Positions 4,790 to 59,806 of a stretch of DNA of 64,000 nucleotides are shown here, one piece after another. The translations under genes were made by a program, and so were the position numbers. Source of the stretch: Candidatus Woesearchaeota archaeon (GTDB lineage Archaea; Nanobdellota; Nanobdellia; Woesearchaeales; JAGVYU01); assembly GCA_018303105.1 (NCBI GenBank), contig JAGVYU010000061.1, positions 3,109 to 67,108 of the forward strand, read 5' to 3'. How positions within the stretch are numbered: position 1 is the stretch's first letter; each line of letters opens with the position of its first letter. Under the pieces are notes generated by a model, which worked only from the letters and a program-made list of their open reading frames with translations, searched no databases and was not told where the DNA came from.

Positions 4790-5045
4790 TTGATTTGTAT
4801 TTCTTGCACGCCACCATGTCGGCGGCTTACGGCCATGCATCGCATGGCCTACTCGCCACCCCGGATGTCTAAGAAATCGAAGATTTCTGAGATCTTAAAA
4901 ATTGCAGAGCAATTTTTCAGAGGGCATCCCCCGGCTCGTCCAGCGCCGACGTGGCGTGCGGCGAGGGTGGGGATGCGCCGTCCGGGCTCCCGAGCAGGAC
5001 AGATTTACGAAGTAAATCTGGACGTCGCACCGCCACTGTCGGCGC
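4790..5045 (+). ncRNA. Candidate GC-rich structured non-coding RNA of unknown class, strand uncertain
   Basis: This is the highest-GC non-coding stretch in the window. It holds several perfect hairpins: GGCCATGC/GCATGGCC at 4831-4849, AGAAATC-GAA-GATTTCT at 4872-4888, AAAAATTGC-AGA-GCAATTTTT at 4896-4916, GCATCCCC...GGGGATGC at 4924-4976, and CAGATTTAC-GAA-GTAAATCTG at 5000-5020. The only ORFs here are Arg-rich shadow frames. Confidence 0.3.
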
Positions 5046-5113
5046 AAATATTGTTAACAACTGAAGATCATTGACCACAATCCTTATAAACTGCGTTCCG
5101 TTCCATAAACTCA

Positions 5114-5452
5114 ATGCAAAGAAAACCGTTCAGGCAACCTGAAGCGCCCGAGGCGCAGATTGCACGCATATTTTTACCGCGTGATAAGCAGGTATTCGGA
5201 CTTCTTGAGCAGAGGCTTGGCGCTTCGCGAATCAGAGTGCGCTGCCTTGATGGCAAGACTCGGATCTGCAGGATTCCAGGAAGGCTCAAGAGGAAGTTAT
5301 GGGTGCGTGAGGGCGATATCGTGATTGTGGAGCCCTGGGAGTTTGGGGGAGACGCGAAAGGCGATGTCGTGTACAAGTATACGCCCACGCAAGTGCAGTT
5401 TTTGAAGAATAAGGGCTATCTGAAACAGCTTGATGAGTTCTCAGAGTTTTAA
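5114..5452 (+). CDS. eif1a: Translation initiation factor aIF-1A
   Basis: GKTRICRIPGRLKRKLWVREGDIVIVEPWEF is the S1-like OB fold of eIF-1A. A TATA-like cttataaa box sits about 25 nt upstream, consistent with a leaderless mRNA. Confidence 0.9.
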   Translation: MQRKPFRQPEAPEAQIARIFLPRDKQVFGLLEQRLGASRIRVRCLDGKTRICRIPGRLKRKLWVREGDIVIVEPWEFGGDAKGDVVYKYTPTQVQFLKNKGYLKQLDEFSEF

Positions 5453-9289: not shown

Positions 9290-10570
9290 TCAATTACAGG
9301 TGCCCGGTAATCCGGCAAATGTGTCACAATCATTGCTTGCACATTCGCTGTAGTAATAGCAGGATACTCCCCCGCAGAGCCCACAATCAGGATTGTTAGT
9401 TGGGGATATTGGATTGCTAGGATTATAACAGACACCAGAGCAAGTTGCCGTATCCACCGCCCCTTCAATAATCCCCTGAAACTCTTTCTTGCAATTGTGC
9501 AAAATTTCTTTTTTAATTTTGTATCCTATATCCTCTCCTGCATCAAGAAGCTGCCCTGCGTTGCCGTAAAAATTCCAAACCAAAAGCGGATCGTCTTGCT
9601 TAATTATCAGATCATTCTCTCCTGCAAAAGTTCCTTCAACGATTCTATTATCTGGGGCGAGATAAATACTATTTCTAGCAGTCGGAATAATAGCCGCATC
9701 ATTTGAGAAGAAAAACCGGTCACTTCCAATCTCATCACTCAATTGCTCATTCAACGCACTCAACGCACATTTCGGTATTTTTTCCCAATATTTGAGTCTT
9801 GTAAGGGTTCCTTCAGGGTCTATCTTCACGCGCACCGTTGTCTCTCCCGTTGTTTCATCGTATTCAAACGTTCTCTCTATTTTAACTCTGTCCTGTTCAT
9901 CAAAGATCTTATCGCATTCCGGTCCAAGTTCAGAATCTGATATTAATCTAAGGGGAACATCTCGCTTTGCTGCCATTATCTCCCTTACTATTTCACAAAA
10001 ATCCTTTTTCGTCAATTCAACATTCACCTCATCAATGAATGTGCAGTCATAGAGACTATTCTCTGACTCATCCGTTTGTCTAAATATGGCAAACTGCCCT
10101 TTGCCTTCAATCTTAGCTTGTAACCTTCCTTCATGCACGGCATAGCATTCAAAGTATGGCCAGGAGATGTCAATCTCGCCAATGTCAAAACTGCTCACAA
10201 TGGCGCCTTTCCTCATCATGAACACATCATCACCCATGCCAGACTCAATATTATCCTGAATAAGAGGATACTGCGCAAAAGAAGATGAAATCTCTTTCTT
10301 AGCGTCAATAAGATACACTTTATCCACGCCGCACGGCACCGTATACGTTTTAATCTGCTGATCACCGCGCTTTAAACCAACAACACGTGTATCATGCTTC
10401 AAATCCCCGGAAAACACCTGCAATTCTGTTTTACACCCGGCATTCTTGAAATCATAATACATCTTAAACCCAAAAACAATGATCAAGCCAACTATGACTA
10501 AGACAATAATAAACGCGAACTGTTCGCCTTCGATTTGCGCTTTTTTCAATTTGATAATTTTTCTTATCAT
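9290..10570 (-). CDS. Membrane-anchored extracellular protein with a Cys-rich C-terminus
   Basis: An N-terminal TM segment (FAFIIVLVIVGLIIVFGF) is followed by a large ectodomain that ends in a Cys cluster (CGLCGGVSCYYYSECASNDCD). Confidence 0.4.
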   Translation of the reverse strand: MIRKIIKLKKAQIEGEQFAFIIVLVIVGLIIVFGFKMYYDFKNAGCKTELQVFSGDLKHDTRVVGLKRGDQQIKTYTVPCGVDKVYLIDAKKEISSSFAQYPLIQDNIESGMGDDVFMMRKGAIVSSFDIGEIDISWPYFECYAVHEGRLQAKIEGKGQFAIFRQTDESENSLYDCTFIDEVNVELTKKDFCEIVREIMAAKRDVPLRLISDSELGPECDKIFDEQDRVKIERTFEYDETTGETTVRVKIDPEGTLTRLKYWEKIPKCALSALNEQLSDEIGSDRFFFSNDAAIIPTARNSIYLAPDNRIVEGTFAGENDLIIKQDDPLLVWNFYGNAGQLLDAGEDIGYKIKKEILHNCKKEFQGIIEGAVDTATCSGVCYNPSNPISPTNNPDCGLCGGVSCYYYSECASNDCDTFAGLPGTCN

Positions 10571-12499: not shown

Positions 12500-12913
12500 T
12501 TACCACCGTCTTGAATAACTCGGCTGCTGCTCCCGCATCGCAATTCTTTCAATGTTCATAAGCCTTTGATTAATGCTTTCCAAACTTGCCTGCAGCGCAT
12601 CCATCTTTGAGGATAGAATCTCAATGTTTTTTCCAATGATGACCGTATCTTGATTAGGATATGCTTGTTGTTGATAAGCGGGCTGAGCGAAACTAGGCTG
12701 CAATTGAGGCGTCATGAACGGCCTAGGCTCCTGGAATGGCTCAATGCGGTCAAGACCCAAACCAGACTGCGTGTTCTGGCCATAACGCTGCTGGCCAAAC
12801 GGATCATTCACGCCGGGAATACTTGTGTCTGTTGGATTCAAATCCGTCGGAAGCTCAGGAAGCCCTGAATCCTTCTTCCAGAACATCAGCTTGTCCATGA
12901 AACCCATGACCAC
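12500..12913 (-). CDS. Hypothetical Q/P-rich protein with a C-terminal coiled coil
   Basis: ORF with a low-complexity N-terminus and a heptad-like C-terminus (ILSSKMDALQASLESINQRLMNIERI). Confidence 0.3.
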   Translation of the reverse strand: MVMGFMDKLMFWKKDSGLPELPTDLNPTDTSIPGVNDPFGQQRYGQNTQSGLGLDRIEPFQEPRPFMTPQLQPSFAQPAYQQQAYPNQDTVIIGKNIEILSSKMDALQASLESINQRLMNIERIAMREQQPSYSRRW

Positions 12914-13233
12914 ACCTCTTTTTCAATATAGCTACGGAAACCACTATTTAAAGGTTACGAGCGAAGTTAAGATGAATGAATCGTTTGTTAGAAGGCAACA
13001 ACAAGAATGGCTTCGGACGACCTCATTGCATTCGGCCTCCTCGGGACTCCGGAGGTTATGGAAATCGCAAATTTCCAGAACTTCTGGAAACCCTTCAGGT
13101 TTCCATAAGAGCCAACCCTCCCCTCGGCCTCGCCTACGGCGCCAGAACTGGAGTTGAAGTCCGCCGCCTGCAACCGGCGCCGCGGTGACCACATTTAGAG
13201 GGTTTTGTAGTCATCTCTATAGATAGCAAATCC

Positions 13234-40050: not shown

Positions 40051-40134
40051 GCGGGGATGCCGGAGAGGTCAAACGGGCTACGTTCAGGGCGTAGTAGCTT
40101 AGTGCTTACGGGGGTTCGAATCCTCCTCCCCGCA
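40051..40134 (+). tRNA. tRNA-Leu (anticodon CAG), class II with long variable arm, no encoded CCA
   Basis: The acceptor stem pairs GCGGGGA with TCCCCGC. The D arm is CCG/CGG around an 11-nt loop. The anticodon stem is CTACG/CGTAG with loop TTCAGGG, giving CAG with G37. The variable arm has an AGC/GCT stem. The T arm is GGGGG-TTCGAAT-CCTCC. The discriminator is A. Confidence 0.75.
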
Positions 40135-40258
40135 GCCTTTTTACAAAAAAGTCTGGCCAAAAAGAAGGGAGTTGAACTCACGTTCAAGCTCCCTAAGTTT
40201 AATTCGTGGGCTCGAGCGGTAGCGAGACCCACAGACGCCAGCGGGCTTCCGCTGGTGG

Positions 40259-40275
40259 GAATCCTCCTCCCCGCA
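40259..40275 (+). repeat. Direct repeat of the tRNA-Leu 3' end (GAATCCTCCTCCCCGCA; other copy at 40118-40134)
   Basis: An exact 17-nt repeat. The 3' flank is similar in both copies (A-rich linker plus hairpin), but the 5' side has no acceptor or T-arm partner, so the second copy is not a functional tRNA. Confidence 0.5.
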
Positions 40276-40359
40276 ATCCTTTTAAAAAAAGGCTTGACCG
40301 AAAAAAGAGGGTTGCTCTCACGAGCAAGCCCTCTGAGTGTTTTTTGAGGGCTTGAGGTG

Positions 40360-44950: not shown

Positions 44951-45242
44951 TTGATGCGAATTCTGGGAGATTGATTGGGAGTAAAGTATCCAAATAAGGC
45001 CCTTTGCGAACTCCATGCAATCCCTGTCTTTGCGAGCCAGCCATGGCGGCGGCGAGGGAGGGGATGGTTGCCGAGCGAAGCGAGCGCAACTAGGAAAATC
45101 CATGATTTTCCGTGCTCCATACGGGAATCCCGAGCAGGGCATTTTGTGCAGCAAAATGACCGTCGCCCGCCATGATTGGCTGGCTCATCCTAAATACCTG
45201 CCGCCTGACTGTGATTTTATCAACAACATTTAAATAGAAAAC

Positions 45243-45983
45243 GTGCTCAAAACCCCTAAAAAGGAGGTTTCTCATATGAAAACAGGACTATGGATACTGT
45301 GTGTACTTACATTGTTTATTGTGGCATGCGCGCCAACACCGCCTGAAGCGCCGCCCGCTCCAGAACCCGCGGCTCCACAGGAACAGGTTACAGAGCCTGT
45401 AACACCCGCCCCGGAACCTACTAAGGAGATCGACTCCCCAACACGGGAATTCCTTGCCAAACATGATAAAGTGACGAGTTATAGCTACGGATTCGGCGAG
45501 CTCAACCAGCGTGACAAGATTAACGTAAAAGGTGACTTCATACGCATTGATCTCAGCGAGCGCAGAGGCAAGAATGATGAGGAGCGCTATGATGTTGTTT
45601 TCCTCGACGTGAAGGCGAAAACAGCGAAGGGAACGTGCGAAGCGAGCATCTGTGAGCCGAATTATTACAAAACGTATGTCGAGGCCGTCTATGGAGCGCA
45701 TGACCTAGAAAAGCTGCCATTGGATTACTTGGGAGATATCGCATATGCGGAGCTGGGCAAGAACACGCAGCTTCTTGAGAATAGAAAAACACAGGAAGTC
45801 CTTGTCGAGATGAAGGATGGCAGCACAGGAACGATGTGGCTGGACGAGTTTTATGGCTTCCCGTTCCAGATCGAGCTGACAAAAAACGACAAGAAAACAA
45901 CGATAACGTTCTATGATGTAGCCATAAACAGCCTCAACGACGATGACGTGAAGGTGCCTTCAAGCTTTACGCTGCGCCAATGA
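45243..45983 (+). CDS. Secreted lipoprotein, hypothetical
   Basis: The signal peptide ends in the lipobox LFIVAC, and a Pro/Glu-rich linker follows. Confidence 0.5.
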   Translation: MLKTPKKEVSHMKTGLWILCVLTLFIVACAPTPPEAPPAPEPAAPQEQVTEPVTPAPEPTKEIDSPTREFLAKHDKVTSYSYGFGELNQRDKINVKGDFIRIDLSERRGKNDEERYDVVFLDVKAKTAKGTCEASICEPNYYKTYVEAVYGAHDLEKLPLDYLGDIAYAELGKNTQLLENRKTQEVLVEMKDGSTGTMWLDEFYGFPFQIELTKNDKKTTITFYDVAINSLNDDDVKVPSSFTLRQ

Positions 45984-46576: not shown

Positions 46577-47769
46577 ACGGCAAAACCATAGAAGATGTTG
46601 TGCTTGCTCCGCGTGATCTTCACTTTGACTTTTTGCTTACCCTGAGGACATTTCAGCACGGTAATGCAGCGATCCTTCGCAACCGCAATGACCTCCCCGG
46701 GCAGTCTCCCTGGACATTTCACGTCTGCTTCAACAATATCCCCTTTCTGAAAAGGCTTAGGAAGCTTCGCGCTTGGCACAATGTCAAATTTTGGATGCAG
46801 GTCAAATCCCTTCTCGCGCTCGAGTTCATCGAGGTAGTTATAGAAAGCGTTCCACGGGAGTTCTTTAGCCGGCTTTTTTCCATACTCATACGATAAGAAA
46901 TTCTGAATCCCGATTTTCACTGGAAATTTTCCCTGAACGGACTTCGCAAAGTCTATAATCAACGGGATTTCTGCGTCATTAATGCCCATCATGAGAACCG
47001 GGGCAATGACAATCTCAAAATACTTAGCGGCGTAGCGGACATTGTCTTTAATATGCTCAATGTTAATAGGAGCGCCTTCAACTTTTTTTGCCTTCTCTGG
47101 ATTCATGGCATGCAGGGAAACGCTGCACTGGTCTAATCCTGCCACTGCTAATTCATCGACGAGCTTTTTGCTTAAGAGCACGGCATTCGTGTATATCGCG
47201 ACGGTTTTTACCCCTTTTATTTTTTTAAGGTCACGCACGAGCGGGGCAAGATCATGGTACAATGTCGGATCCCCATGCGGATTAATCACGATATGAATAT
47301 TCTCCGTATTCTTGAACGCGACAACCTTTTCAGTCTCCTGAACAAGATAGTCTTTTTCAACAATGAAATCACGCTCGCGCCTTCCCATATCCACCGAACA
47401 GAAGATGCAATCGATATTGCAACCGGTTATAGGCTTGAGGTCGATGACATTCGTGTTTCTGTCCACAATGCCAAAGTAGAGCGTGCCCAGAAGCGGAATC
47501 CCCGAGTTTTTATGGATGTATGTTGTCTCATTTTTCTTGATCCTGTTTATTAAGTGGGGAAAATGCTTTTGCAGAAGGGTATTGAGCGCATGCTCAGCCA
47601 CATACTGCTTTTCGGTTTTGAACACGAGCTCTTTTTTCCTCACTTCAACGATGCCTGAAGCCTCAATTTCATCCTGAGGCACATCAAAATAGTACAGCGT
47701 GAGGAAGTTAAACCGCACATATTCTGGCTTTGCATCGAACGTAAAGTCCTGAAAGGAGAGTGTAACCAT
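46573..47769 (-). CDS. Radical SAM protein with a C-terminal TRAM-like domain
   Basis: The CxxxCxxC cluster motif is ITGCNIDCIFCS. The C-terminus GDIVEADVKCPGRLPGEVIAV...KVKI looks like a beta-barrel TRAM fold. Confidence 0.65.
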   Translation of the reverse strand: MVTLSFQDFTFDAKPEYVRFNFLTLYYFDVPQDEIEASGIVEVRKKELVFKTEKQYVAEHALNTLLQKHFPHLINRIKKNETTYIHKNSGIPLLGTLYFGIVDRNTNVIDLKPITGCNIDCIFCSVDMGRRERDFIVEKDYLVQETEKVVAFKNTENIHIVINPHGDPTLYHDLAPLVRDLKKIKGVKTVAIYTNAVLLSKKLVDELAVAGLDQCSVSLHAMNPEKAKKVEGAPINIEHIKDNVRYAAKYFEIVIAPVLMMGINDAEIPLIIDFAKSVQGKFPVKIGIQNFLSYEYGKKPAKELPWNAFYNYLDELEREKGFDLHPKFDIVPSAKLPKPFQKGDIVEADVKCPGRLPGEVIAVAKDRCITVLKCPQGKQKVKVKITRSKHNIFYGFAV

Positions 47770-47918
47770 TATTTACGAGAAGCACAGCGGTCTTTTAAAG
47801 GTTATGTTAGAGCATGGTTTCGATTCTAATTAATTAGGAGAGTTTTTTGTGTAATCCCAAGTTTGGCAAATGTAAATCTTAATAAAGGATCCACAGAACG
47901 GTGTTTCATGAATTGGCA

Positions 47919-50835: not shown

Positions 50836-51093
50836 ATGAAAGCCGTCATCGCGCACTTCAGGCAAAACCGGCATAGGACCGTTGGGAATCACATGATCGT
50901 GAGGGTAGACGGTGTAGAAGATCGAAAAAAAGCTTCTGACCTCCTTGGAAAAACCGTAGTGTGGAAAAGTCCAAAAGGAAAAGAAATCAAGGGAAAAGTC
51001 GCTGCTCCTCATGGGAATAAAGGCGCAGTCCGCGTCATCTTTGAGAAAGGCATGCCGGGACAGAGCATCACGCAGCATGTTGAGATTAGTTGA
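50836..51093 (+). CDS. rpl35ae: 50S ribosomal protein L35Ae
   Basis: HMIVRVDGVEDRKKASDLLGKTVVWKSPKGKEIKGKVAAPHGNKGAVRV is an L35Ae beta-barrel. Confidence 0.85.
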   Translation: MKAVIAHFRQNRHRTVGNHMIVRVDGVEDRKKASDLLGKTVVWKSPKGKEIKGKVAAPHGNKGAVRVIFEKGMPGQSITQHVEIS

Positions 51094-51133
51094 GTTCTCG
51101 ATATATTTTTAGAGTTATGATGTGATTACGATT

Positions 51134-51236
51134 TCGATTGCAACACCCCAACTGGCTTCGGACGGCCTTCGGCCTCCGCGGGAGCCCGGAGGGCGCGTCC
51201 CCACCCGCGGCCTCGCCAGTGGTGTTGCATACATTA
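51134..51236 (+). ncRNA. Candidate structured small RNA of unknown class, about 100 nt
   Basis: An atatattttt TATA-like box at 51101-51110 would place the start near 51134. A 15-bp terminal stem pairs TGCAACACC[CCA]ACTGGC with GCCAGTGGTGTTGCA. It encloses a three-way junction carrying a GGCC-TTC-GGCC hairpin and a CCGCGGG/CCCGCGG stem. GC is far above local background. ACA lies 1-2 nt 3' of the closing stem. Confidence 0.35.
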
Positions 51237-51665
51237 ACTTCTATGATATGCTGTCGCGATATGCTCAACAGAATTCCTTATGCGGTTCTTATGAGTTCTT
51301 CTTAACGTCGTGACATCACCATGGAGATTCGCATGGAACCTTCTGCTCTGGTCAAGCTCGCGCAATAATAAGTCACGCTGCTTAGCGTCTTTGGGAGTTG
51401 CGTGTTTTTTATGATCAATATCCCTTATACGCCCTCTGAGATCGGACTCCAAGGTTCGAATGGATGCGGCGAGCTTCATGTTTTTTATGGCGATAATCGA
51501 AGCGAGCGCGTGCAATAACTCAACCTCCTGCTTCATGCGGTTAACGCGCTGCACAATATCCGTTGTATAATGCCGGTGCTGCTCAGACTGGATGAGGATC
51601 TGTGCTGTTTCCAGAATTTTTTTTGAAAGGTCAATATCGCTTGATAGGATTGACAGGGCTGCCAT
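51234..51665 (-). CDS. Hypothetical coiled-coil protein
   Basis: ORF with heptad periodicity. The start is taken at MAALSIL. Confidence 0.35.
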   Translation of the reverse strand: MAALSILSSDIDLSKKILETAQILIQSEQHRHYTTDIVQRVNRMKQEVELLHALASIIAIKNMKLAASIRTLESDLRGRIRDIDHKKHATPKDAKQRDLLLRELDQSRRFHANLHGDVTTLRRTHKNRIRNSVEHIATAYHRS

Positions 51666-52156: not shown

Positions 52157-53647
52157 TTGAAAGCACTGAAGCGATTCACCATTCTCGGCGTGTTGGCGAC
52201 TGTTGCGAGCTTGCAGGTTGTGCATGCTGATATCATTCCGAGATTTATCACAGATAATATTCGCAATTGGTTTACACTGGGTGTCCAAGATTGGTTCTTG
52301 AAGGTTTTACTCTGGGTGCTCATCTTCTGTATCATGTACGTTGGGGCAATCAAGATCCCTGCATTCGCAGACCACAAGAACATCGTTATCACGTTCGCTT
52401 TTGTAATAGCAACTTTAAGCGCTGTCATGGCACCTGCAGATATGCTCCGCAGCATCGCGAAAAGTTACGGATTCCTCTCAAATGCTATACTCCTCCTAAT
52501 TCCCGTTGCTGGCGGTTTGTACCTTGCGCACACCTTCGATAAGTCTACTGGGTGGGGCAGAGGAATGCGAGCAATGATATTTGCGATCGCCGCATGGATG
52601 ATAGGCAGCGCGGCTATTTATGTGCAACAAACAGGCGTAGGACAATGGTCCTGGCGAGATCTCTTTGACCTTTCCACAACAATATTGTTTGTGCTTGCGA
52701 TTGCTAATTTGGTGATGGCGTTTAAGGGAAGCGGTTCTTCAAGTTCAGTAACTTCCACCCCTGCTGCGCAAGCCGAACAAAAAGCGGAATCGCAAAAAGC
52801 GCAGAAACAGGTTGCCGAGGCTGATGCGGAGGAAAAGGAGTTAGAAGCGGAAGAGAAAAAGGAAAAGCAGGCCGAGAAAAAGCTGCTCAAGGATATTGAG
52901 AAGATACGACAGCGCGATGTCCATGAAGTGGACAAACAGATAGCTGATCTTAACCTGATTATTACCGCGCTGCAGCAGGGCATCATTCCAGATGATACGA
53001 AGAAGAAAGTCAACAAAGCGATAGCGAGCCTGAAAGAAGAGATCAGCAGGGAGGATGAATTTGAGCGACAGTTTATTCAACGCTCCGCTGAATTTCAAAA
53101 TATCGTTAACAAAGATTTCTCCATCTTGAAAAAACTTGGTGACGCAACACAGTTTGATGCGATTGCGGTTAAACTCAAGGAGGTTATGGATGCAAATCAG
53201 GCATCATATGGATGGCATACCCCTGAACCAGGTAGGCTAGCTAAGATTAGGCAAGCACTTGGAGGACCCTTTGGAGGTGCTCCGTTAGCTGCTACTGCAC
53301 CTCTGAAAGCGCTTTTTGATGACCTGAAAAAGGTCCGTGATGATGTTGGCAATGCAATTCGTACAGAAGTGGATCTACTCAAACAACATCAACAAAACTA
53401 CGAAACGTTGATCAATGAAGGTGTTGAACGCTACCAGGCAAGGGATAGAATCGCTGTTCAGGCCTTTGTGAATGCGCGTGAGGAGAAAAAAGAGCAGCAA
53501 AAAATCCTCAAAGATCTAGGCGGGGTCACTAAGATGGCACGAGACTGGACAAACCATGCGGTGCACGATCTTGAGAAGTTTAGATCAAATACGAACCTCA
53601 ATAACCACCGGATCTTAGCCTGGTTGGCGAAAGTCGACAAACCGTAG
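52157..53647 (+). CDS. Membrane-anchored long coiled-coil protein (paralogue 1)
   Basis: An N-terminal roughly 200-aa domain with 5 TM helices is followed by about 290 aa of charged heptad-rich sequence (AEAEEKKEKQAEKKLLKDIEKIRQRD...). Confidence 0.6.
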   Translation: MKALKRFTILGVLATVASLQVVHADIIPRFITDNIRNWFTLGVQDWFLKVLLWVLIFCIMYVGAIKIPAFADHKNIVITFAFVIATLSAVMAPADMLRSIAKSYGFLSNAILLLIPVAGGLYLAHTFDKSTGWGRGMRAMIFAIAAWMIGSAAIYVQQTGVGQWSWRDLFDLSTTILFVLAIANLVMAFKGSGSSSSVTSTPAAQAEQKAESQKAQKQVAEADAEEKELEAEEKKEKQAEKKLLKDIEKIRQRDVHEVDKQIADLNLIITALQQGIIPDDTKKKVNKAIASLKEEISREDEFERQFIQRSAEFQNIVNKDFSILKKLGDATQFDAIAVKLKEVMDANQASYGWHTPEPGRLAKIRQALGGPFGGAPLAATAPLKALFDDLKKVRDDVGNAIRTEVDLLKQHQQNYETLINEGVERYQARDRIAVQAFVNAREEKKEQQKILKDLGGVTKMARDWTNHAVHDLEKFRSNTNLNNHRILAWLAKVDKP

Positions 53648-53684: not shown

Positions 53685-55343
53685 ATGGCAGTTAGACCCG
53701 GCTTCTGGAAATTAACATCTGTTGTTCTGGCATTCCTTATTTCACTTCCTTTCGCATTCGCCGCCCTCATCCCTGCCATTGTAACAGATAACCTCCGCGT
53801 CTGGTTTGGATCCGGTCTAGGTCTCGATCAAGTTTGGGTTGTGAGGTTTATGCTCTTCATTCTTCTTTACGCCATTATTTACTTCGGCGCGAGCAAAGTG
53901 TTTCAGGGGCATCAAAACATCGCGATCACGGTTTCAATTGTGCTCGGGCTGCTCGGGTCACTTACGGCTCCACCAGACATGCTTATGTCGATTGCCACAA
54001 CATATGGGTTGCTCGGGAATGTTCTTTTCCTCTTAGCGCCTGTTTTTGCAGGGTTGTATGTGGCCCATAAACTCAATACGGGCGGAGCGTATGGTCATGT
54101 CATTCGCGCGTTTATCTTCTTCATGCTCGCATGGTTATTGTCCACAGGGCTCACGATGTACGACATGCAGTGGAGCATGGGCAATTTCGAGTTTTCAGAC
54201 GGAGTACAGCTGGCGATGACTGCGTTTATTATCCTGGGCATATGGTCCTTGATAAAAGGATCCGGAGAAGCCGTTAGAGGAGATATCTCATCATCAGGCT
54301 CCGGATCCGGCTTTTTCGGGAGCAGCAGGGAACGCGGCAGCAGGATTATGGGAAAAATAGGAGATTGGTGGAGAGGAAGAAGGAGAGATCCGCGGGAGAT
54401 TCGACCAAAAAGAAGATGGTGGCAGTTTTGGAGGAGGAAAATGACTCCCGAACAGGAAGCGGATGCTGCTCTCGAAACAACAGATGTTGCCCAAATTGGA
54501 CAGACAACAGCCCAGATTGACAGAGCTATAGCAGAAAATCGCCAGGATGAAGAAGCGGAAGATACTCAGGCAGGCCGGGTGGCAACTACTGAAGATAACA
54601 TAGCGGGGGAAGAAGAACAAGAGCTGGAGGTATTAGCTGCAGATTTGGGGGGTTTATCGGGTGCACCTCAAGAAAAAAAGGAGGCTATCGTAACTGATAT
54701 GAAACGTAGAATTAGCACTCTAAAAAGATGGGATGCTGAGGATAGAGAGCTCATTAAAACTCTTGAAAACATCGAAGGACACATTAAAAAAACAGAAGAA
54801 AAACCAATGTTGATTGTGAGATGGGCTCGGAAAAACTTGCGAGACCAAGTAACGAAGCTGGCGAATATTGAATTAAAGAAGATTGAAAAGCGTAAAGACG
54901 AAATTATGAAAAGCGAGGGTAAAATACCTGAGAAGGACATGAAAGCTATTATGGAAGATAAGAAAAAAGTTGAATCATTGCTGGCTCAAGCAATTAAAAT
55001 GATTGAAGATGACGTTAATAAGGAAGCGGAAAGCTGGCAAAGACAAATCGTTGCTTCCTTAAATACTGTGCAACAATTAATTCCGCAGATAAGACAAGAT
55101 CAGCAGGCTTATGAAAACTATGTGTCGAAAGCTATTCAAGAGGTAAACGGTGGAAATCCGCAAGCTTTGCCCCTATCAGAGGAAGATTTCAGAGCAGCTC
55201 AGAAAATCAAATCAGATCAGAGAAAGAGATTAAAAAGACTTAAAGAGATTGTGAATTCCAAATTAAGATTCGATCAACGTGTAGTGGGGAAATACGATTT
55301 CAAGGATTTACAGAAGTTTGTAAAGAACAAATTCAAGGTTTAA
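53685..55343 (+). CDS. Membrane-anchored long coiled-coil protein (paralogue 2)
   Basis: The N-terminal TM domain aligns with paralogue 1. IPAIVTDNLRVWF aligns with IPRFITDNIRNWF, and PPDMLMSIATTYGLLGNVLFLLAPVFAGLYVAH aligns with PADMLRSIAKSYGFLSNAILLLIPVAGGLYLAH. An RG/RR-rich linker and a coiled coil follow. Confidence 0.6.
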   Translation: MAVRPGFWKLTSVVLAFLISLPFAFAALIPAIVTDNLRVWFGSGLGLDQVWVVRFMLFILLYAIIYFGASKVFQGHQNIAITVSIVLGLLGSLTAPPDMLMSIATTYGLLGNVLFLLAPVFAGLYVAHKLNTGGAYGHVIRAFIFFMLAWLLSTGLTMYDMQWSMGNFEFSDGVQLAMTAFIILGIWSLIKGSGEAVRGDISSSGSGSGFFGSSRERGSRIMGKIGDWWRGRRRDPREIRPKRRWWQFWRRKMTPEQEADAALETTDVAQIGQTTAQIDRAIAENRQDEEAEDTQAGRVATTEDNIAGEEEQELEVLAADLGGLSGAPQEKKEAIVTDMKRRISTLKRWDAEDRELIKTLENIEGHIKKTEEKPMLIVRWARKNLRDQVTKLANIELKKIEKRKDEIMKSEGKIPEKDMKAIMEDKKKVESLLAQAIKMIEDDVNKEAESWQRQIVASLNTVQQLIPQIRQDQQAYENYVSKAIQEVNGGNPQALPLSEEDFRAAQKIKSDQRKRLKRLKEIVNSKLRFDQRVVGKYDFKDLQKFVKNKFKV

Positions 55344-59137: not shown

Positions 59138-59806
59138 ATGTGGGTTGTTTTCATGGCTAGAACGTATAATGAGTATTATCTCGGATGGCAGGAGATTAAC
59201 AGGATCATAGCCTGTGCCAAGAACCTCAAAGAGCGGGTAATTCTAAAGATTCTGGCGAGAACAGGCATGCGAAGATTCGAGCTTGCAAATCTTCGCGTAA
59301 AAGACGTCGATTTTGACCGCAAGCGCATCTATATCAGCAAGGGAAAAGGAGGAACTGACGAGGATCCAAAATCGAGGATCGTTCCTATCGACGATGACAC
59401 CCTTCAAGATATCAAGTTTTATCTCGAAGGACGCCGGGCCGGAATATTGATCCAGAGCAATAAAAAAGCGCATGACGGCATCTCTTTATCCGCAATAAAC
59501 AGGATTACCGAAGGGGCTGCTGAACGGGCAGGAATCCGGAATCCTAATCCAAAGCTTAAGCATCTCAATCCCCATATCTTCAGGCACAGTTTCTCACGGC
59601 TCAGCCTCATGGAGGGCATTCCCTTCAACATTGTGCAGAAAATTGTTGGACACGCCGATGCGCGAACAACGCTGCAAATGTACGGAGTACCGTCGATAAA
59701 TGACGCTCAGCATATGTACAACGAAAAGCTGACTATGCGCTTTCACCAAAAAGTGAGCCTTGAGGAAGATAACAAGCTTTCAAAATTTACGTCTGACAGA
59801 TCGTAA
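59138..59806 (+). CDS. Minimal tyrosine recombinase/integrase (catalytic domain only)
   Basis: The catalytic residues are R in TGMRRFEL, K in ISKGKGG, HxxR in HIFRHSF, the second R in HADARTT, and the nucleophile Y in LQMYG. No N-terminal SAM-like core-binding domain is present. Confidence 0.8.
   Translation: MWVVFMARTYNEYYLGWQEINRIIACAKNLKERVILKILARTGMRRFELANLRVKDVDFDRKRIYISKGKGGTDEDPKSRIVPIDDDTLQDIKFYLEGRRAGILIQSNKKAHDGISLSAINRITEGAAERAGIRNPNPKLKHLNPHIFRHSFSRLSLMEGIPFNIVQKIVGHADARTTLQMYGVPSINDAQHMYNEKLTMRFHQKVSLEEDNKLSKFTSDRS

What the first reader, a model, noticed from the sequence alone, without database searches (positions are those of the whole stretch)
51134..51236. Compact GC-rich RNA-like element with a 15-bp closing stem and three-way junction downstream of rpl35ae
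TGCAACACC[CCA]ACTGGC ... GCCAGTGGTGTTGCA forms a long bulged stem. It encloses a GGCC-TTC-GGCC hairpin and a CCGCGGG...CCCGCGG stem-loop. An atatattttt box sits about 25 nt upstream. ACA follows the closing stem, and T-rich sequence lies downstream.

This resembles an independently transcribed small RNA of about 100 nt. The three-way junction and the short pocket strands do not fit a canonical H/ACA or C/D guide, nor tRNA or 5S.
Basis: seen in the sequence. Interest (0 to 1): 0.5.

Follow-up and report, generated by a model that had tools for sequence, protein, structure and literature searches.

The report
Multi-copy GC-rich three-way-junction RNA element
The hairpin-rich element after the ribosomal protein gene is real and is one of at least seven diverged copies of an uncatalogued folded element in one tiny groundwater archaeon, probably a family of small non-coding RNAs of unknown role.

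Summary
Window 51139-51229 (+) is a 91-nt, 74% GC island in a 44% GC Woesearchaeota-type genome. It has a 9-bp + 3-nt bulge + 6-bp closing stem (fold z = -4.3).

It is not unique. The window holds four more homologous copies (4806-4959 +, 5045-4943 -, 12995-13134 +, 45186-45034 -). Two more lie on contigs that are probably from the same population genome.

All copies share one architecture: P1a, a 5' bulge, P1b, the P2 hairpin, then P3/P4 with a C-rich internal loop. They also share the motif CCU[CAG]C[GU]CG(GG|CC)A.

Helix sequences differ between copies but stay complementary: 26 of 38 pairs show double changes, and 0 of 500 shuffles reach this. A model built without this copy finds it at exactly these coordinates (E about 1e-4).

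Rfam, tRNA, H/ACA, C/D, SRP, 5S, MITE and attC tests all fail. A TATA-like box lies 35-50 nt upstream in 6 of 7 copies.

Best reading (about 0.45): a lineage-specific family of sibling small RNA genes. Main rival (about 0.3): a dispersed palindromic DNA repeat, favoured by the total absence of G-U pairs and by shuffled modules. Expression is untested.

The parts
51101..51110 (+). TATA-like box (ATATATTTTT). Possible promoter of the element. Its T5 (51106-51110) could instead be the rpl35ae terminator.
   Evidence: Sequence. A TATA-like hexamer lies 35-50 nt before P1a in 6 of 7 copies and none on the 3' side.
51111..51138 (+). Leader, homologous to the leader of copy e13k.
   Evidence: A local alignment extends upstream of the stem: AGTTATGATGTGATTACGATTTCGAT against AGTTAAGATGAATGAATCGTTTGTTAGAAG.
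51139..51156 (+). 5' strands of the closing helix: P1a 51139-51147, bulge CCA 51148-51150, P1b 51151-51156.
   Evidence: Covariation: P1a 8-9 of 9-10 pairs and P1b 5 of 7 pairs with double changes.
51159..51178 (+). P2 arm: CGGA / bulged C / GGCC-UUC-GGCC / UCCG.
   Evidence: The same bulged-hairpin design with unrelated sequences occurs in the other copies (9 of 13 pairs with double changes).
51173..51183 (+). Family signature CCUCCGCGGGA (J2/3 plus the P3 5' strand).
   Evidence: The regex CCT[CAG]C[GT]CG(GG|CC)A hits all 7 copies and only 2 other sites in 559 kb of low-GC sequence, the window and L317 included.
51179..51207 (+). P3 (CGGG 51179-82 / CCCG 51204-07), A51183, P4 hairpin GCCC-GGA-GGGC 51184-94, and the C-rich 3' internal loop GCGUCCCCA 51195-51203.
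   Evidence: P3 switches GG/CC to CC/GG in two copies. P4 is GCCC/GGGC, CCCC/GGGG or CUCC/GGAG.
51208..51229 (+). J3/1 CGGCCUC, then the P1b 3' strand (51215-20) and the P1a 3' strand (51221-29).
   Evidence: Leave-out model R2 aligns the whole of 51139-51229.
4806..4959 (+). Paralogue e4.9kA: GCACGCCAC[CAU]GUCGGCG...CGCCGAC GUGGCGUGC, with a 53-nt AT-rich hairpin insert in P4.
   Evidence: R2 33.4 bits, E 1e-5 (this copy was in the training set).
4943..5045 (-). Paralogue e4.9kB. It converges on e4.9kA and uses the same DNA (4943-4959) as its 3' closing strand.
   Evidence: (inverted repeat I3).
12995..13134 (+). Paralogue e13k. Its 5' P1 strands match L317b and its interior matches L317a, with a 54-nt insert. 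The 3' P1 partner is missing and a different GC-rich 3' domain runs to about 13195.
   Evidence: R2 core hit 13.4 bits, E 0.39 (this copy was left out of training).
45034..45186 (-). Paralogue e45k: GAGCCAGCC[AAUC]AUGGCGG...CCGCCAU GGCUGGCUC, with a 56-nt insert.
   Evidence: R2 50.5 bits (this copy was in the training set).

Best explanation
The element is one copy (e51k) of a lineage-specific, multi-copy family of GC-rich, modular elements that all fold into the same three-way junction. Most likely each copy is a small, very stable non-coding RNA gene, so that the copies are 'sibling sRNAs'.

Proposed working, with the status of each step:
1. Transcription starts about 25 nt after a TATA-like box, near 51128-51136 for this copy (inferred).
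2. The 5' and 3' ends are clamped by a bipartite closing helix, P1a-bulge-P1b, which would protect the RNA and define its 3' end near 51229-51233. The pairing is shown. The RNA ends are inferred.
3. The junction holds a bulged P2 hairpin and a P3/P4 arm in a fixed geometry (shown by compensatory changes).
4. The junction displays the parts that are conserved in sequence and unpaired, all pyrimidine-rich: J2/3 (CCUxCx), the single A after P3, the 3' internal loop ((A/U)UCCCC or ACCCUCCCC) and J3/1 (CGSC). I take these as the binding surface for one shared partner. That partner would be a protein, giving an RNP scaffold or sponge, or G-rich RNA such as GGAGG-type ribosome-binding sites (inferred, low confidence).
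5. P1a, P2 and the P4 loop are free to vary and accept hairpin inserts (shown).
For: - Real, non-random fold.
- Seven homologous copies: five in the window, two on L317-type contigs.
- On the hand-made structural alignment, 90.6% of cells pair against 65% in shuffles (0 of 500 reach it) and at most 47% when partners are slid. 26 of 38 pairs carry changes on both sides. My own count is 94% paired and 27 of 38.
- P1a and P2 of one copy do not pair with those of other copies, apart from identical or near-identical P2 sequences.
- Leave-out test: model R2, built from five other copies, finds 51139-51229 (+) end to end at 29.2 bits, E 9.5e-5. The best non-family hit has E 0.27, and there is no minus-strand hit.
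- The repeated unit starts with a TATA-like box at -35 to -50 in 6 of 7 copies, plus a homologous leader in three copies. It ends exactly at P1a. TATA-like boxes are absent on the 3' side.
- All copies are intergenic, and indels between copies are not multiples of three, so the element is not coding.
- GC is 57-74% in a 44% GC genome.
Against: - No expression data.
- All paired cells are Watson-Crick: 204 WC, 0 G-U, 1 A-C, and 65 WC with 0 G-U in the inserts. There are no one-sided changes in any pair. That is unusual for an RNA under RNA-level selection.
- The family is seen only in one population genome. The L317-type contig is binned in the same MAG, GCA_964533475.1, so there is no cross-species conservation. 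No copies were found in about 85 other Woesearchaeota and Pacearchaeota loci.
- Modules are shuffled between copies, and two copies form an inverted pair. This is repeat-like behaviour.
- Several TATA boxes could belong to divergent neighbour genes: aIF1A at 5114, the gene starting at 12913, and the lipoprotein ATG at 45272.
- L317a has no TATA box and starts 14 nt after a stop codon.
- There is no oligo-T terminator after most copies, while T4-T5 runs lie inside some.
- For e51k alone the consensus interior is 6-10 kcal/mol worse than the MFE.
- Strong Shine-Dalgarno motifs precede only 5 of 55 genes, which weakens the anti-RBS idea.
- The alignment was made by hand with pairing in mind.
Confidence: 0.45

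Rival explanations
1. The family is a dispersed palindromic DNA repeat. It would be a selfish or mutationally generated family of nested-hairpin intergenic elements, comparable in kind to ERIC, BOX, REP or Correia elements. Its stems would be created and kept perfect at the DNA level, by replication template switching or hairpin-templated correction, and its copies would spread and recombine. Any transcript would be incidental.
For: - Strictly Watson-Crick stems: 0 G-U in 269 pairs and no one-sided changes.
- Both strands fold almost equally well.
- Mosaic copies: e13k combines the L317b 5' end with the L317a interior, and e45k and L317a share about 45 identical nt with unrelated flanks.
- The tail-to-tail pair e4.9kA/B shares one arm.
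- Copies occur in either orientation relative to neighbours, whose genes are unrelated.
- The family is confined to one genome.
- Perfect short hairpins are a general feature of Woesearchaeota intergenic DNA, and the same hairpin types sit as inserts inside copies.
- Template switching is documented to create perfect stems and multi-base compensatory changes in one step (PMC8794818).
Against: - The outer stems differ completely between copies while the interior is conserved. This is the reverse of a transposase-dependent MITE.
- No target-site duplications.
- No transposase is associated, apart from an unrelated IS240-type gene about 2 kb from L317b in one strain.
- The conserved asymmetry (bulge always on the same strand, module order, TATA only on one side) and the strand-specific CM score point to an oriented functional unit.
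- All ten assemblies of the locus carry the copy, with no empty site.
- Template switching also operates on genuine RNA genes, so perfect stems do not exclude function.
Confidence: 0.3
2. The element is a cis-acting 3'-end structure. It would be a bidirectional terminator, insulator or RNA-stabilising structure for the convergent genes rpl35ae (+) and the 143-aa orphan gene (-, stop codon at 51234-51236, 4 nt from the element).
For: - The element sits between convergent genes, 45 nt after the rpl35ae stop and 4 nt after the other stop.
- L317a starts 14 nt after a NUDIX gene stop and is followed by T5.
- Strand-symmetric perfect pairing would suit a two-way element.
- Other Woesearchaeota have hairpin clusters downstream of rpl35ae.
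Against: - Three copies (e4.9kA, e4.9kB, e13k) lie between divergent genes, next to gene starts rather than gene ends.
- No oligo-T follows e51k on either strand, and the terminator scan found nothing.
- rpl35ae already has a T5 before the element.
- Archaeal termination does not need hairpins (established knowledge).
- A conserved junction sequence and a three-way fold are unnecessary for a terminator.
Confidence: 0.1
3. The element is a very divergent member of a known RNA class: an H/ACA guide, an SRP S-domain-like RNA, a 5S or tRNA-like RNA, or an undescribed riboswitch or ribozyme variant of a catalogued fold.
For: - ACA lies one base after the closing stem of e51k.
- The topology (long closing helix plus two hairpins, the second with an asymmetric loop and a GGA loop) resembles the SRP S domain. 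This is a resemblance from memory, not a test.
- DPANN RNAs are often atypical.
Against: - No Rfam hit at E up to 10, even in 250-600-nt searches around three copies, nor in the whole window.
- ARAGORN finds nothing here.
- No C, D or T-loop motifs.
- There is no internal-loop pocket or K-turn, and the ACA is 23 nt from the junction and absent in other copies.
- Seven divergent copies are incompatible with single-copy SRP or 5S RNA.
Confidence: 0.05

Closest known systems
Multi-copy 'sibling' regulatory sRNAs with C-rich unpaired motifs (LhrC1-5, RsaE, csRNAs and Qrr in bacteria; RBS-masking sRNAs such as Methanosarcina sRNA41). Cited from my own knowledge.
   Same: Several paralogous genes of about 100 nt per genome. 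Each has its own promoter, a stable stem-loop scaffold, and conserved pyrimidine-rich single strands (UCCCC, CCUCC).
   Different: No target, Hfq/Lsm partner or expression is known here. The fold is a closed three-way junction with paired ends rather than an open 5' seed plus terminator hairpin. SD-led genes are a minority in this genome.
GC-rich orphan ncRNAs found as GC islands in AT-rich archaeal genomes (Hgc and Ssc RNAs; Klein, Misulovin & Eddy 2002). Cited from my own knowledge; the families are in Rfam.
   Same: A GC island in a lower-GC archaeal genome, about 100 nt, intergenic, with a TATA-like box upstream and unknown function.
   Different: No Rfam match to any of them. The host is a mesophilic groundwater DPANN archaeon. 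This element is multi-copy and modular.
Bacterial dispersed structured intergenic repeats (ERIC/IRU, BOX, REP/BIME, Correia/NEMIS).
   Same: Multi-copy, intergenic, found in either orientation, strongly palindromic and modular, with internal insertions at fixed sites. They are sometimes transcribed and may carry promoters.
   Different: In those families the terminal arms are the conserved part, and target duplications or a cognate transposase exist. Here the outer arms are copy-specific, the interior is conserved, there is no TSD, and the host is archaeal.
Integron attC sites, reported in Nanoarchaeota and other Archaea (PMC9668308).
   Same: Folded, strictly base-paired sites whose stems are conserved in structure rather than sequence. 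They have a bulge on one strand and a variable, sometimes branched, terminal structure.
   Different: No RYYYAAC/GTTRRRY R boxes. The copies are not arranged as cassette arrays in one orientation. The interior sequence is conserved, and no IntI gene is adjacent.
Archaeal H/ACA guide sRNA.
   Same: A GC-rich hairpin RNA with a roughly 9-bp lower stem followed by ACA.
   Different: No pseudouridylation pocket, no K-turn or K-loop, wrong ACA spacing, and the ACA is not conserved among copies.

Membership tests
Any Rfam 15 family (including 5S rRNA, Archaea_SRP, RNase P, tRNA, Hgc RNAs, riboswitches, ribozymes) | Covariance-model score at or near the family's gathering threshold. | tested here: not met
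   0 hits at gathering for the window. 0 hits at E<=10 in 50900-51500. Nothing at the other copies in the whole-window E<=10 run or in local runs.
tRNA / tmRNA | Cloverleaf with T-loop GTTCRA and an anticodon arm. | tested here: not met
   ARAGORN finds only tRNA-Leu at 40051-40134. No GTTC[GA]A in any copy.
Archaeal H/ACA sRNA | Internal-loop pseudouridylation pocket between the lower and upper stems. | tested here: not met
   P1a and P1b are separated only by a 1-4-nt one-sided bulge. After P1b comes a three-way junction.
Archaeal H/ACA sRNA | ACA box 14-16 nt 3' of the pocket, conserved in the family. | tested here: not met
   The ACA at 51231-33 is 23 nt from the junction. The other copies have no ACA directly after P1.
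Archaeal H/ACA and C/D sRNA | K-turn or K-loop (tandem G-A pairs), or boxes C (RUGAUGA) and D (CUGA). | tested here: not met
   No box C in any copy. CUGA occurs only by chance in two copies. All helices next to bulges are Watson-Crick.
SRP RNA S domain | Single-copy gene with the conserved helix-8 loops and a GNAR tetraloop. | tested here: not met
   There are seven divergent copies. There is no Archaea_SRP hit. P2 loops are UUC, UGAG, AUC or CUGCR.
MITE / IS-derived non-autonomous transposon | Terminal inverted repeats conserved in sequence among copies. | tested here: not met
   P1a sequences are unrelated between most copies, and cross-pairing is poor.
MITE / IS-derived non-autonomous transposon | Target-site duplication flanking each copy. 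| tested here: not met
   No direct repeats at the borders of six copies.
MITE / IS-derived non-autonomous transposon | Insertion polymorphism or empty sites, and a cognate transposase in the genome. | tested here: inconclusive
   All 10 assemblies of the locus carry e51k. L358 only looked empty because of a 10-N scaffold gap. The whole genome could not be scanned.
Integron attC site | R''/R' boxes RYYYAAC...GTTRRRY, and arrays of same-orientation cassettes near intI. | tested here: not met
   No R box at any copy start. Copies are dispersed on both strands. A tyrosine recombinase lies about 8 kb away at about 59138-59806 but is not adjacent.
Intrinsic or oligo-T terminator | T run of at least 5 directly after the structure. 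| tested here: not met
   None after e51k on either strand. Only L317a is followed by T5.
New family defined here (working name: Woese-3WJ element) | P1a(7-10 bp)-5' bulge-P1b(xUGGC/GCCAx)...P2...CCU[CAG]C[GU]CG(GG|CC)A...C-rich loop...P1b'-P1a'. | tested here: met
   The descriptor recovers six complete copies, with only AT-rich false positives, in 704 kb. The motif is in all 7 copies. The leave-out CM gives E 9.5e-5 for e51k.
Functional small RNA gene (generic) | A discrete transcript with defined 5' and 3' ends. | not testable with these tools
   No transcriptome data were accessible.

The most novel reading that the evidence does not exclude
These could be a previously unknown class of DPANN-specific RNA genes. 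Each would be a promoter-bearing module encoding a closed three-way-junction RNA. The modules would multiply, exchange helices and acquire new perfect outer stems by replication template switching. The RNA would serve as the component of an unknown RNP, or as a new ligand-binding or catalytic fold whose conserved pyrimidine-rich junction is the active surface. In effect this would be an archaeal counterpart of a self-expanding small-RNA gene family.
Probability: 0.15. Interest if true: 0.8.

Novelty: new member of a known kind. Interest (0 to 1): 0.5.

Why it matters
DPANN archaea have tiny genomes with little spare DNA, and almost nothing is known about their non-coding RNAs. Here about 0.8 kb of conserved, highly structured, GC-rich intergenic sequence recurs at least seven times in about 120 kb. 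Either it does something, as a new sRNA or RNP family that could be tested by RNA-seq and pull-downs, or it documents how nested perfect hairpins arise and spread in a reduced genome.

The complete lack of wobble pairs, despite extensive 'compensatory' variation, also makes it a clean natural test case. It bears on whether template switching, rather than stepwise selection, builds and maintains RNA-like stems.

Tried and rejected
- **Rfam.** I ran the gathering threshold, E<=10 on the whole window, and four local regions. Nothing matched. The only real hit in the window is tRNA-Leu.
- **Synteny.** 79 other Woesearchaeota and Pacearchaeota rpl35ae loci have no GC island downstream. aIF1A neighbourhoods in relatives are not conserved and lack the element.
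- **Single-sequence CM R1**, built on the MFE four-way structure. It found only a weak hit at 13009-13134, which led to the family.
- **Collection scans.**
  - Two loose patterns returned only GC-rich chance hits in viral contigs, 3 for one and 117 for the other.
  - The final pattern gave 2 chance hits in viral contigs.
  - An exact 20-mer from e45k/L317a found nothing in viral contigs.
  - blastn against phages and plasmids found only chance GC-rich matches.
- **'Orthologues in a second species'.** I first read L317a and L317b this way. I withdrew it when the same locus turned up in the MAG that holds the window contig. An apparent empty site in L358 is a 10-N assembly gap.
- **Insertion into pre-existing GC-rich hairpins.** There are no solo GC-rich hairpins of that kind in the window.
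- **The 143-aa neighbour gene as a synteny anchor.** It is an orphan.
- **Extension about 8 kb beyond both window ends.** No further copies.
- **MAFFT on the raw copies.** It misaligns the helices. I therefore used a hand alignment padded with N (A5, A6).
- **Anti-Shine-Dalgarno role.** This is weakened because only 5 of 55 genes have a strong SD.
- **Coding potential.** The overlapping ORFs of 55-63 aa are not preserved between copies.
Full report
**Observation.** The region was read directly and the coordinates checked by script.
- TGCAACACC (51139-51147) pairs with GGTGTTGCA (51221-51229).
- A 3-nt bulge, CCA, follows on the 5' strand.
- ACTGGC (51151-51156) pairs with GCCAGT (51215-51220).
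- Inside lie GGCC-TTC-GGCC (51164-51174) and CCGCGGG...CCCGCGG (51176-51182 with 51204-51210), which encloses GCCC-GGA-GGGC.
- atatattttt is at 51101-51110, and ACA is at 51231-51233.

The 121-nt stretch folds at -53.6 kcal/mol against -38.8 +/- 3.4 for dinucleotide shuffles (z = -4.3, 0 of 200 as good). The opposite strand gives z = -2.7. The 91-nt element is 74% GC in a 44% GC window.

The upstream ORF is rpl35ae (Pfam). L44e and Gins51 lie nearby, so the host is an archaeon. Protein relatives and contig names place it in Woesearchaeota / GTDB Nanoarchaeota from Rifle groundwater.

The 'T-rich downstream' part of the finding does not hold. No oligo-T or terminator-like site follows the element.

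**Not a catalogued RNA.** Rfam 15 gives nothing at gathering thresholds for the whole window. It gives nothing at E<=10 in a 601-nt search around the element or at any copy in the whole-window E<=10 run. ARAGORN finds only tRNA-Leu(CAG) at 40051-40134. Boxes C and D, T-loop and attC R-box motifs are absent.

**Not tied to rpl35ae.** In ten assemblies of the same species the element is identical, apart from one SNP in one assembly that breaks a P1a pair. In 79 rpl35ae loci of other Woesearchaeota and Pacearchaeota species nothing comparable lies downstream.

**The key result: it is a family.**
- A single-sequence covariance model gave a weak hit at 13009-13134.
- Local alignment showed real homology there, extending into the upstream leader, and a further match near 4.9 kb on the other strand.
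- Reading these regions and a motif scan gave five copies in the window:
  - e51k (+) 51139-51229
  - e13k (+) 12995-13134
  - e4.9kA (+) 4806-4959
  - e4.9kB (-) 5045-4943
  - e45k (-) 45186-45034
- One metagenome pattern scan added contig L317, with two more copies: L317a (-) 3678-3580 and L317b (+) 266-361.
- All seven carry CCU[CAG]C[GU]CG(GG|CC)A. This motif has only two other occurrences in 559 kb of low-GC sequence, the window and L317 included.
- A structural descriptor (xUGGC...GCCAx closed by a perfect outer stem of at least 7 bp with a 1-5-nt 5' bulge) recovers the six complete copies, plus only four AT-rich false positives, in 704 kb.

**Shared architecture.** Every copy is built as follows:
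- P1a (7-10 bp, copy-specific sequence)
- a 5' bulge of 1-4 nt
- P1b (5-7 bp, xUGGC/GCCAx)
- a short junction (UUCGGAC, UUAC or GCGAC)
- the P2 hairpin, with a single bulged C or U and 2-4 further pairs
- J2/3 (CCUxCx)
- P3 (CGGG/CCCx, or CGCC/GGCx in two copies)
- one A
- the P4 hairpin (GCCC/GGGC, CCCC/GGGG or CUCC/GGAG), whose loop takes AT-rich hairpin inserts of 53-56 nt in three copies
- a C-rich 3' internal loop
- J3/1, and then the P1 3' strands.

For e51k alone RNAfold prefers a four-way interior by 6-10 kcal/mol. The CGG...CCG mini-hairpin of that alternative cannot form in the two CGCC-type copies, and those are exactly the copies in which P3 co-varies.

**Covariation.** MAFFT misaligns the helices, so I made a structural alignment by hand, padded with N (A5). 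Because I made it with the pairing in mind, it leans towards the structure.
- On A5, the count of structure pairs gives 90.6% paired cells against 65.0 +/- 2.4% in shuffles (0 of 500 reach it) and 34-47% when partners are slid by 1-3 columns. This is despite MAFFT shifting two rows in P1a.
- 26 of 38 pairs have changes on both sides.
- On the unshifted alignment my script gives 94% paired and 27 of 38.
- The P1a and P2 strands of one copy do not pair with those of other copies, unless the P2 sequences are identical or nearly so (e45k with L317a; e51k with e13k and, over its short stem, e4.9kA).
- As an independent test I built model R2 from five copies, excluding e51k and e13k. With filters off on both strands of the window, it finds e51k at exactly 51139-51229 (+), end to end, at 29.2 bits, E 9.5e-5.
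- The best non-family hit is a plain hairpin at E 0.27. The e13k core scores 13.4 bits (E 0.39). The minus strand of e51k is not reported.

**Distribution.**
- R2, the motif and the descriptor find no copy in about 85 loci from other Woesearchaeota and Pacearchaeota genomes.
- None occurs in 35-38% GC relatives from the same samples.
- None occurs in about 8 kb beyond either end of the window.
- I first took L317 for a second species. However, the same NUDIX-plus-element locus is on contig CAZHJH010000082.1 of MAG GCA_964533475.1, which also holds the window's rpl35ae contig.
- The contigs co-occur in the same samples and have 46-49% GC.
- So all seven copies probably come from one population genome, and there is no cross-species conservation to lean on.
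- An apparent empty site in that MAG contig is a 10-N scaffold gap inside the element. Assemblers evidently struggle here (compare L002).

**Promoter and ends.**
- A TATA-like hexamer lies 35-50 nt before P1a in six of seven copies, and none lies within 45 nt on the 3' side.
- e51k, e13k and L317b also share leader sequence between the box and P1a.
- The repeat unit therefore looks like promoter, then leader, then structured RNA ending at P1a. That is what a small RNA gene looks like.

Caveats:
- The box at 5084-5093 is ideally placed for leaderless aIF1A (5114).
- The box at 12944-12953 could serve the divergent gene starting at 12913.
- The box at 45226-45236 could serve the lipoprotein gene (ATG 45272, with a GGAGG Shine-Dalgarno).
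- The T5 in e51k's box could be the rpl35ae terminator.
- L317a has no box and begins 14 nt after a stop codon.
- Most copies lack a following oligo-T.

**Features that point the other way.**
- Every paired cell is Watson-Crick: 204 WC, 0 G-U and 1 A-C in the family helices, and 65 WC with 0 G-U in the inserted hairpins. No pair shows a one-sided change. At the roughly 4% G-U frequency I take as typical of structured RNAs (my assumption, not a tool result), about 10 would be expected.
- Modules are shuffled. e13k has the 5' end of L317b and the interior of L317a, but no 3' closing strand. e45k and L317a share about 45 identical nt although their flanks are unrelated.
- e4.9kA and e4.9kB form an inverted pair that uses the same DNA as their 3' closing strand.
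- Perfect hairpins with 3-4-nt loops are common in Woesearchaeota intergenic DNA (L012, L023, L062). The same types (GGAAAATC/GATTTTCC, AAAAATTGC/GCAATTTTT) are the inserts inside e45k and e4.9kA.

These traits fit a DNA-level palindromic repeat. They also fit stems made and repaired by replication template switching, a process shown to create perfect stems and multi-base compensatory changes even in genuine RNA genes (PMC8794818).

**Weighing.**
- Against a classical MITE:
  - the outer arms are copy-specific while the interior is conserved;
  - there are no target duplications;
  - there are no empty sites.
- Against attC: there are no R boxes, no cassette array and no adjacent intI, although attCs do occur in Nanoarchaeota.
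- Against a terminator: three copies (e4.9kA, e4.9kB, e13k) lie between divergent genes, and no T run follows e51k.
- My preferred reading is a lineage-specific family of sibling small RNA genes (0.45), followed by a dispersed DNA-level repeat (0.30), a cis-acting 3' structure (0.10) and a hidden member of a known class (0.05).
- Within the RNA reading, the conserved unpaired pyrimidine-rich strands are the most plausible binding surface for a shared protein or for G-rich RNA. Strong Shine-Dalgarno motifs precede only 5 of 55 genes, so a general anti-RBS role is unlikely.
- The flanking genes (rpl35ae, an orphan, RDD, aIF1A, an MNT/HEPN-like pair, a lipoprotein, NUDIX, ATCase, a protease) share no theme.

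**Verdict.** It is a new, uncatalogued family of a known general kind, an orphan structured small-RNA or intergenic repeat family. It is of moderate interest, and strand-specific RNA-seq together with a whole-genome CM scan would settle what it is.

Noticed in passing
window 40051-40345: A copy of the 3' end of tRNA-Leu(CAG) (GGGAATCCTCCTCCCCGCA, inside the GC island 40204-40276) lies about 140 nt after the real tRNA (40051-40134). Each is followed by an A/T run and a perfect hairpin with loop TCAC. This looks like a tandem duplication of about 145 nt or an att-like remnant.
   Followed up: partly
window about 59138-59806: A 222-aa tyrosine recombinase (Pfam Phage_integrase, from the L347 annotation) lies in the window. 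It could relate to the tRNA-Leu 3'-end duplicate, but no link to the element family was found.
   Followed up: no
window 40051-40134 (tool behaviour): The Rfam 'gathering' run on the whole window returned nothing. The 'evalue' run scored the tRNA at 47.7 bits, above its 29-bit threshold. The fast filters can therefore drop true hits.
   Followed up: yes
L023 3260-3390; L062 3360-3560; L012 3275-3315; window 4897-4917, 13072-13105, 45093-45111: Woesearchaeota intergenic regions carry clusters of perfect, mostly AT-rich hairpins (7-10 bp, 3-4-nt loops). Identical hairpin types (GGAAAATC/GATTTTCC, AAAAATTGC/GCAATTTTT) recur in different species and appear as inserts inside the GC-rich elements. 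They may form a separate small hairpin-repeat family or terminator type.
   Followed up: partly
window 4806-5045: Two family copies lie tail to tail and share one closing strand. Together they form a 240-nt imperfect palindrome between the RDD gene and aIF1A. The T5 runs inside e4.9kA's insert would read as terminators on both strands.
   Followed up: partly
window 13135-13195: e13k lacks its 3' closing strands. It continues instead into a different GC-rich domain (CGGCGCC...GGCGCCG stem) of unknown nature.
   Followed up: no
L008 1815 (equivalent to window 51145); L358 about 5793: The only variants seen inside copies are these two. An A-to-C change breaks a P1a pair in one assembly. A T-to-G change falls at the bulged U of P2 in the MAG contig. 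Two MAG contigs (L002, L358) have 10-N gaps at or in the elements, which suggests assembly trouble at these hairpins.
   Followed up: partly
window 47714-47778 (-), 10193-10237 (-): Weak C/D-box sRNA-like Rfam matches (21.4 and 16.7 bits, E about 6-9). They could be real but divergent C/D guides.
   Followed up: no
window 52157-53647 and 53685-55343: Two adjacent ORFs (496 and 552 aa) have similar membrane N-termini and long charged coiled-coil-like tails, and look paralogous. Neither has a Pfam match. The neighbouring 143-aa and 115-aa genes also lack Pfam matches, and a homology search on the 143-aa gene found only itself.
   Followed up: partly
L356 6587-6923 against L350 11381-13243: A strain-level structural variant. 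The fused pyrB-pyrI gene next to copy L317a is present in some assemblies and absent in others. The breakpoint is about 125 nt from the element.
   Followed up: partly
L259 1840-1942: A 45% GC metagenome contig shows the hairpin CCGCCGA-GTAA-TCGGCGG followed by CCTCCTCGCCA (the family motif). It sits at the edge of the fetched stretch and may be coincidence or coding sequence.
   Followed up: no
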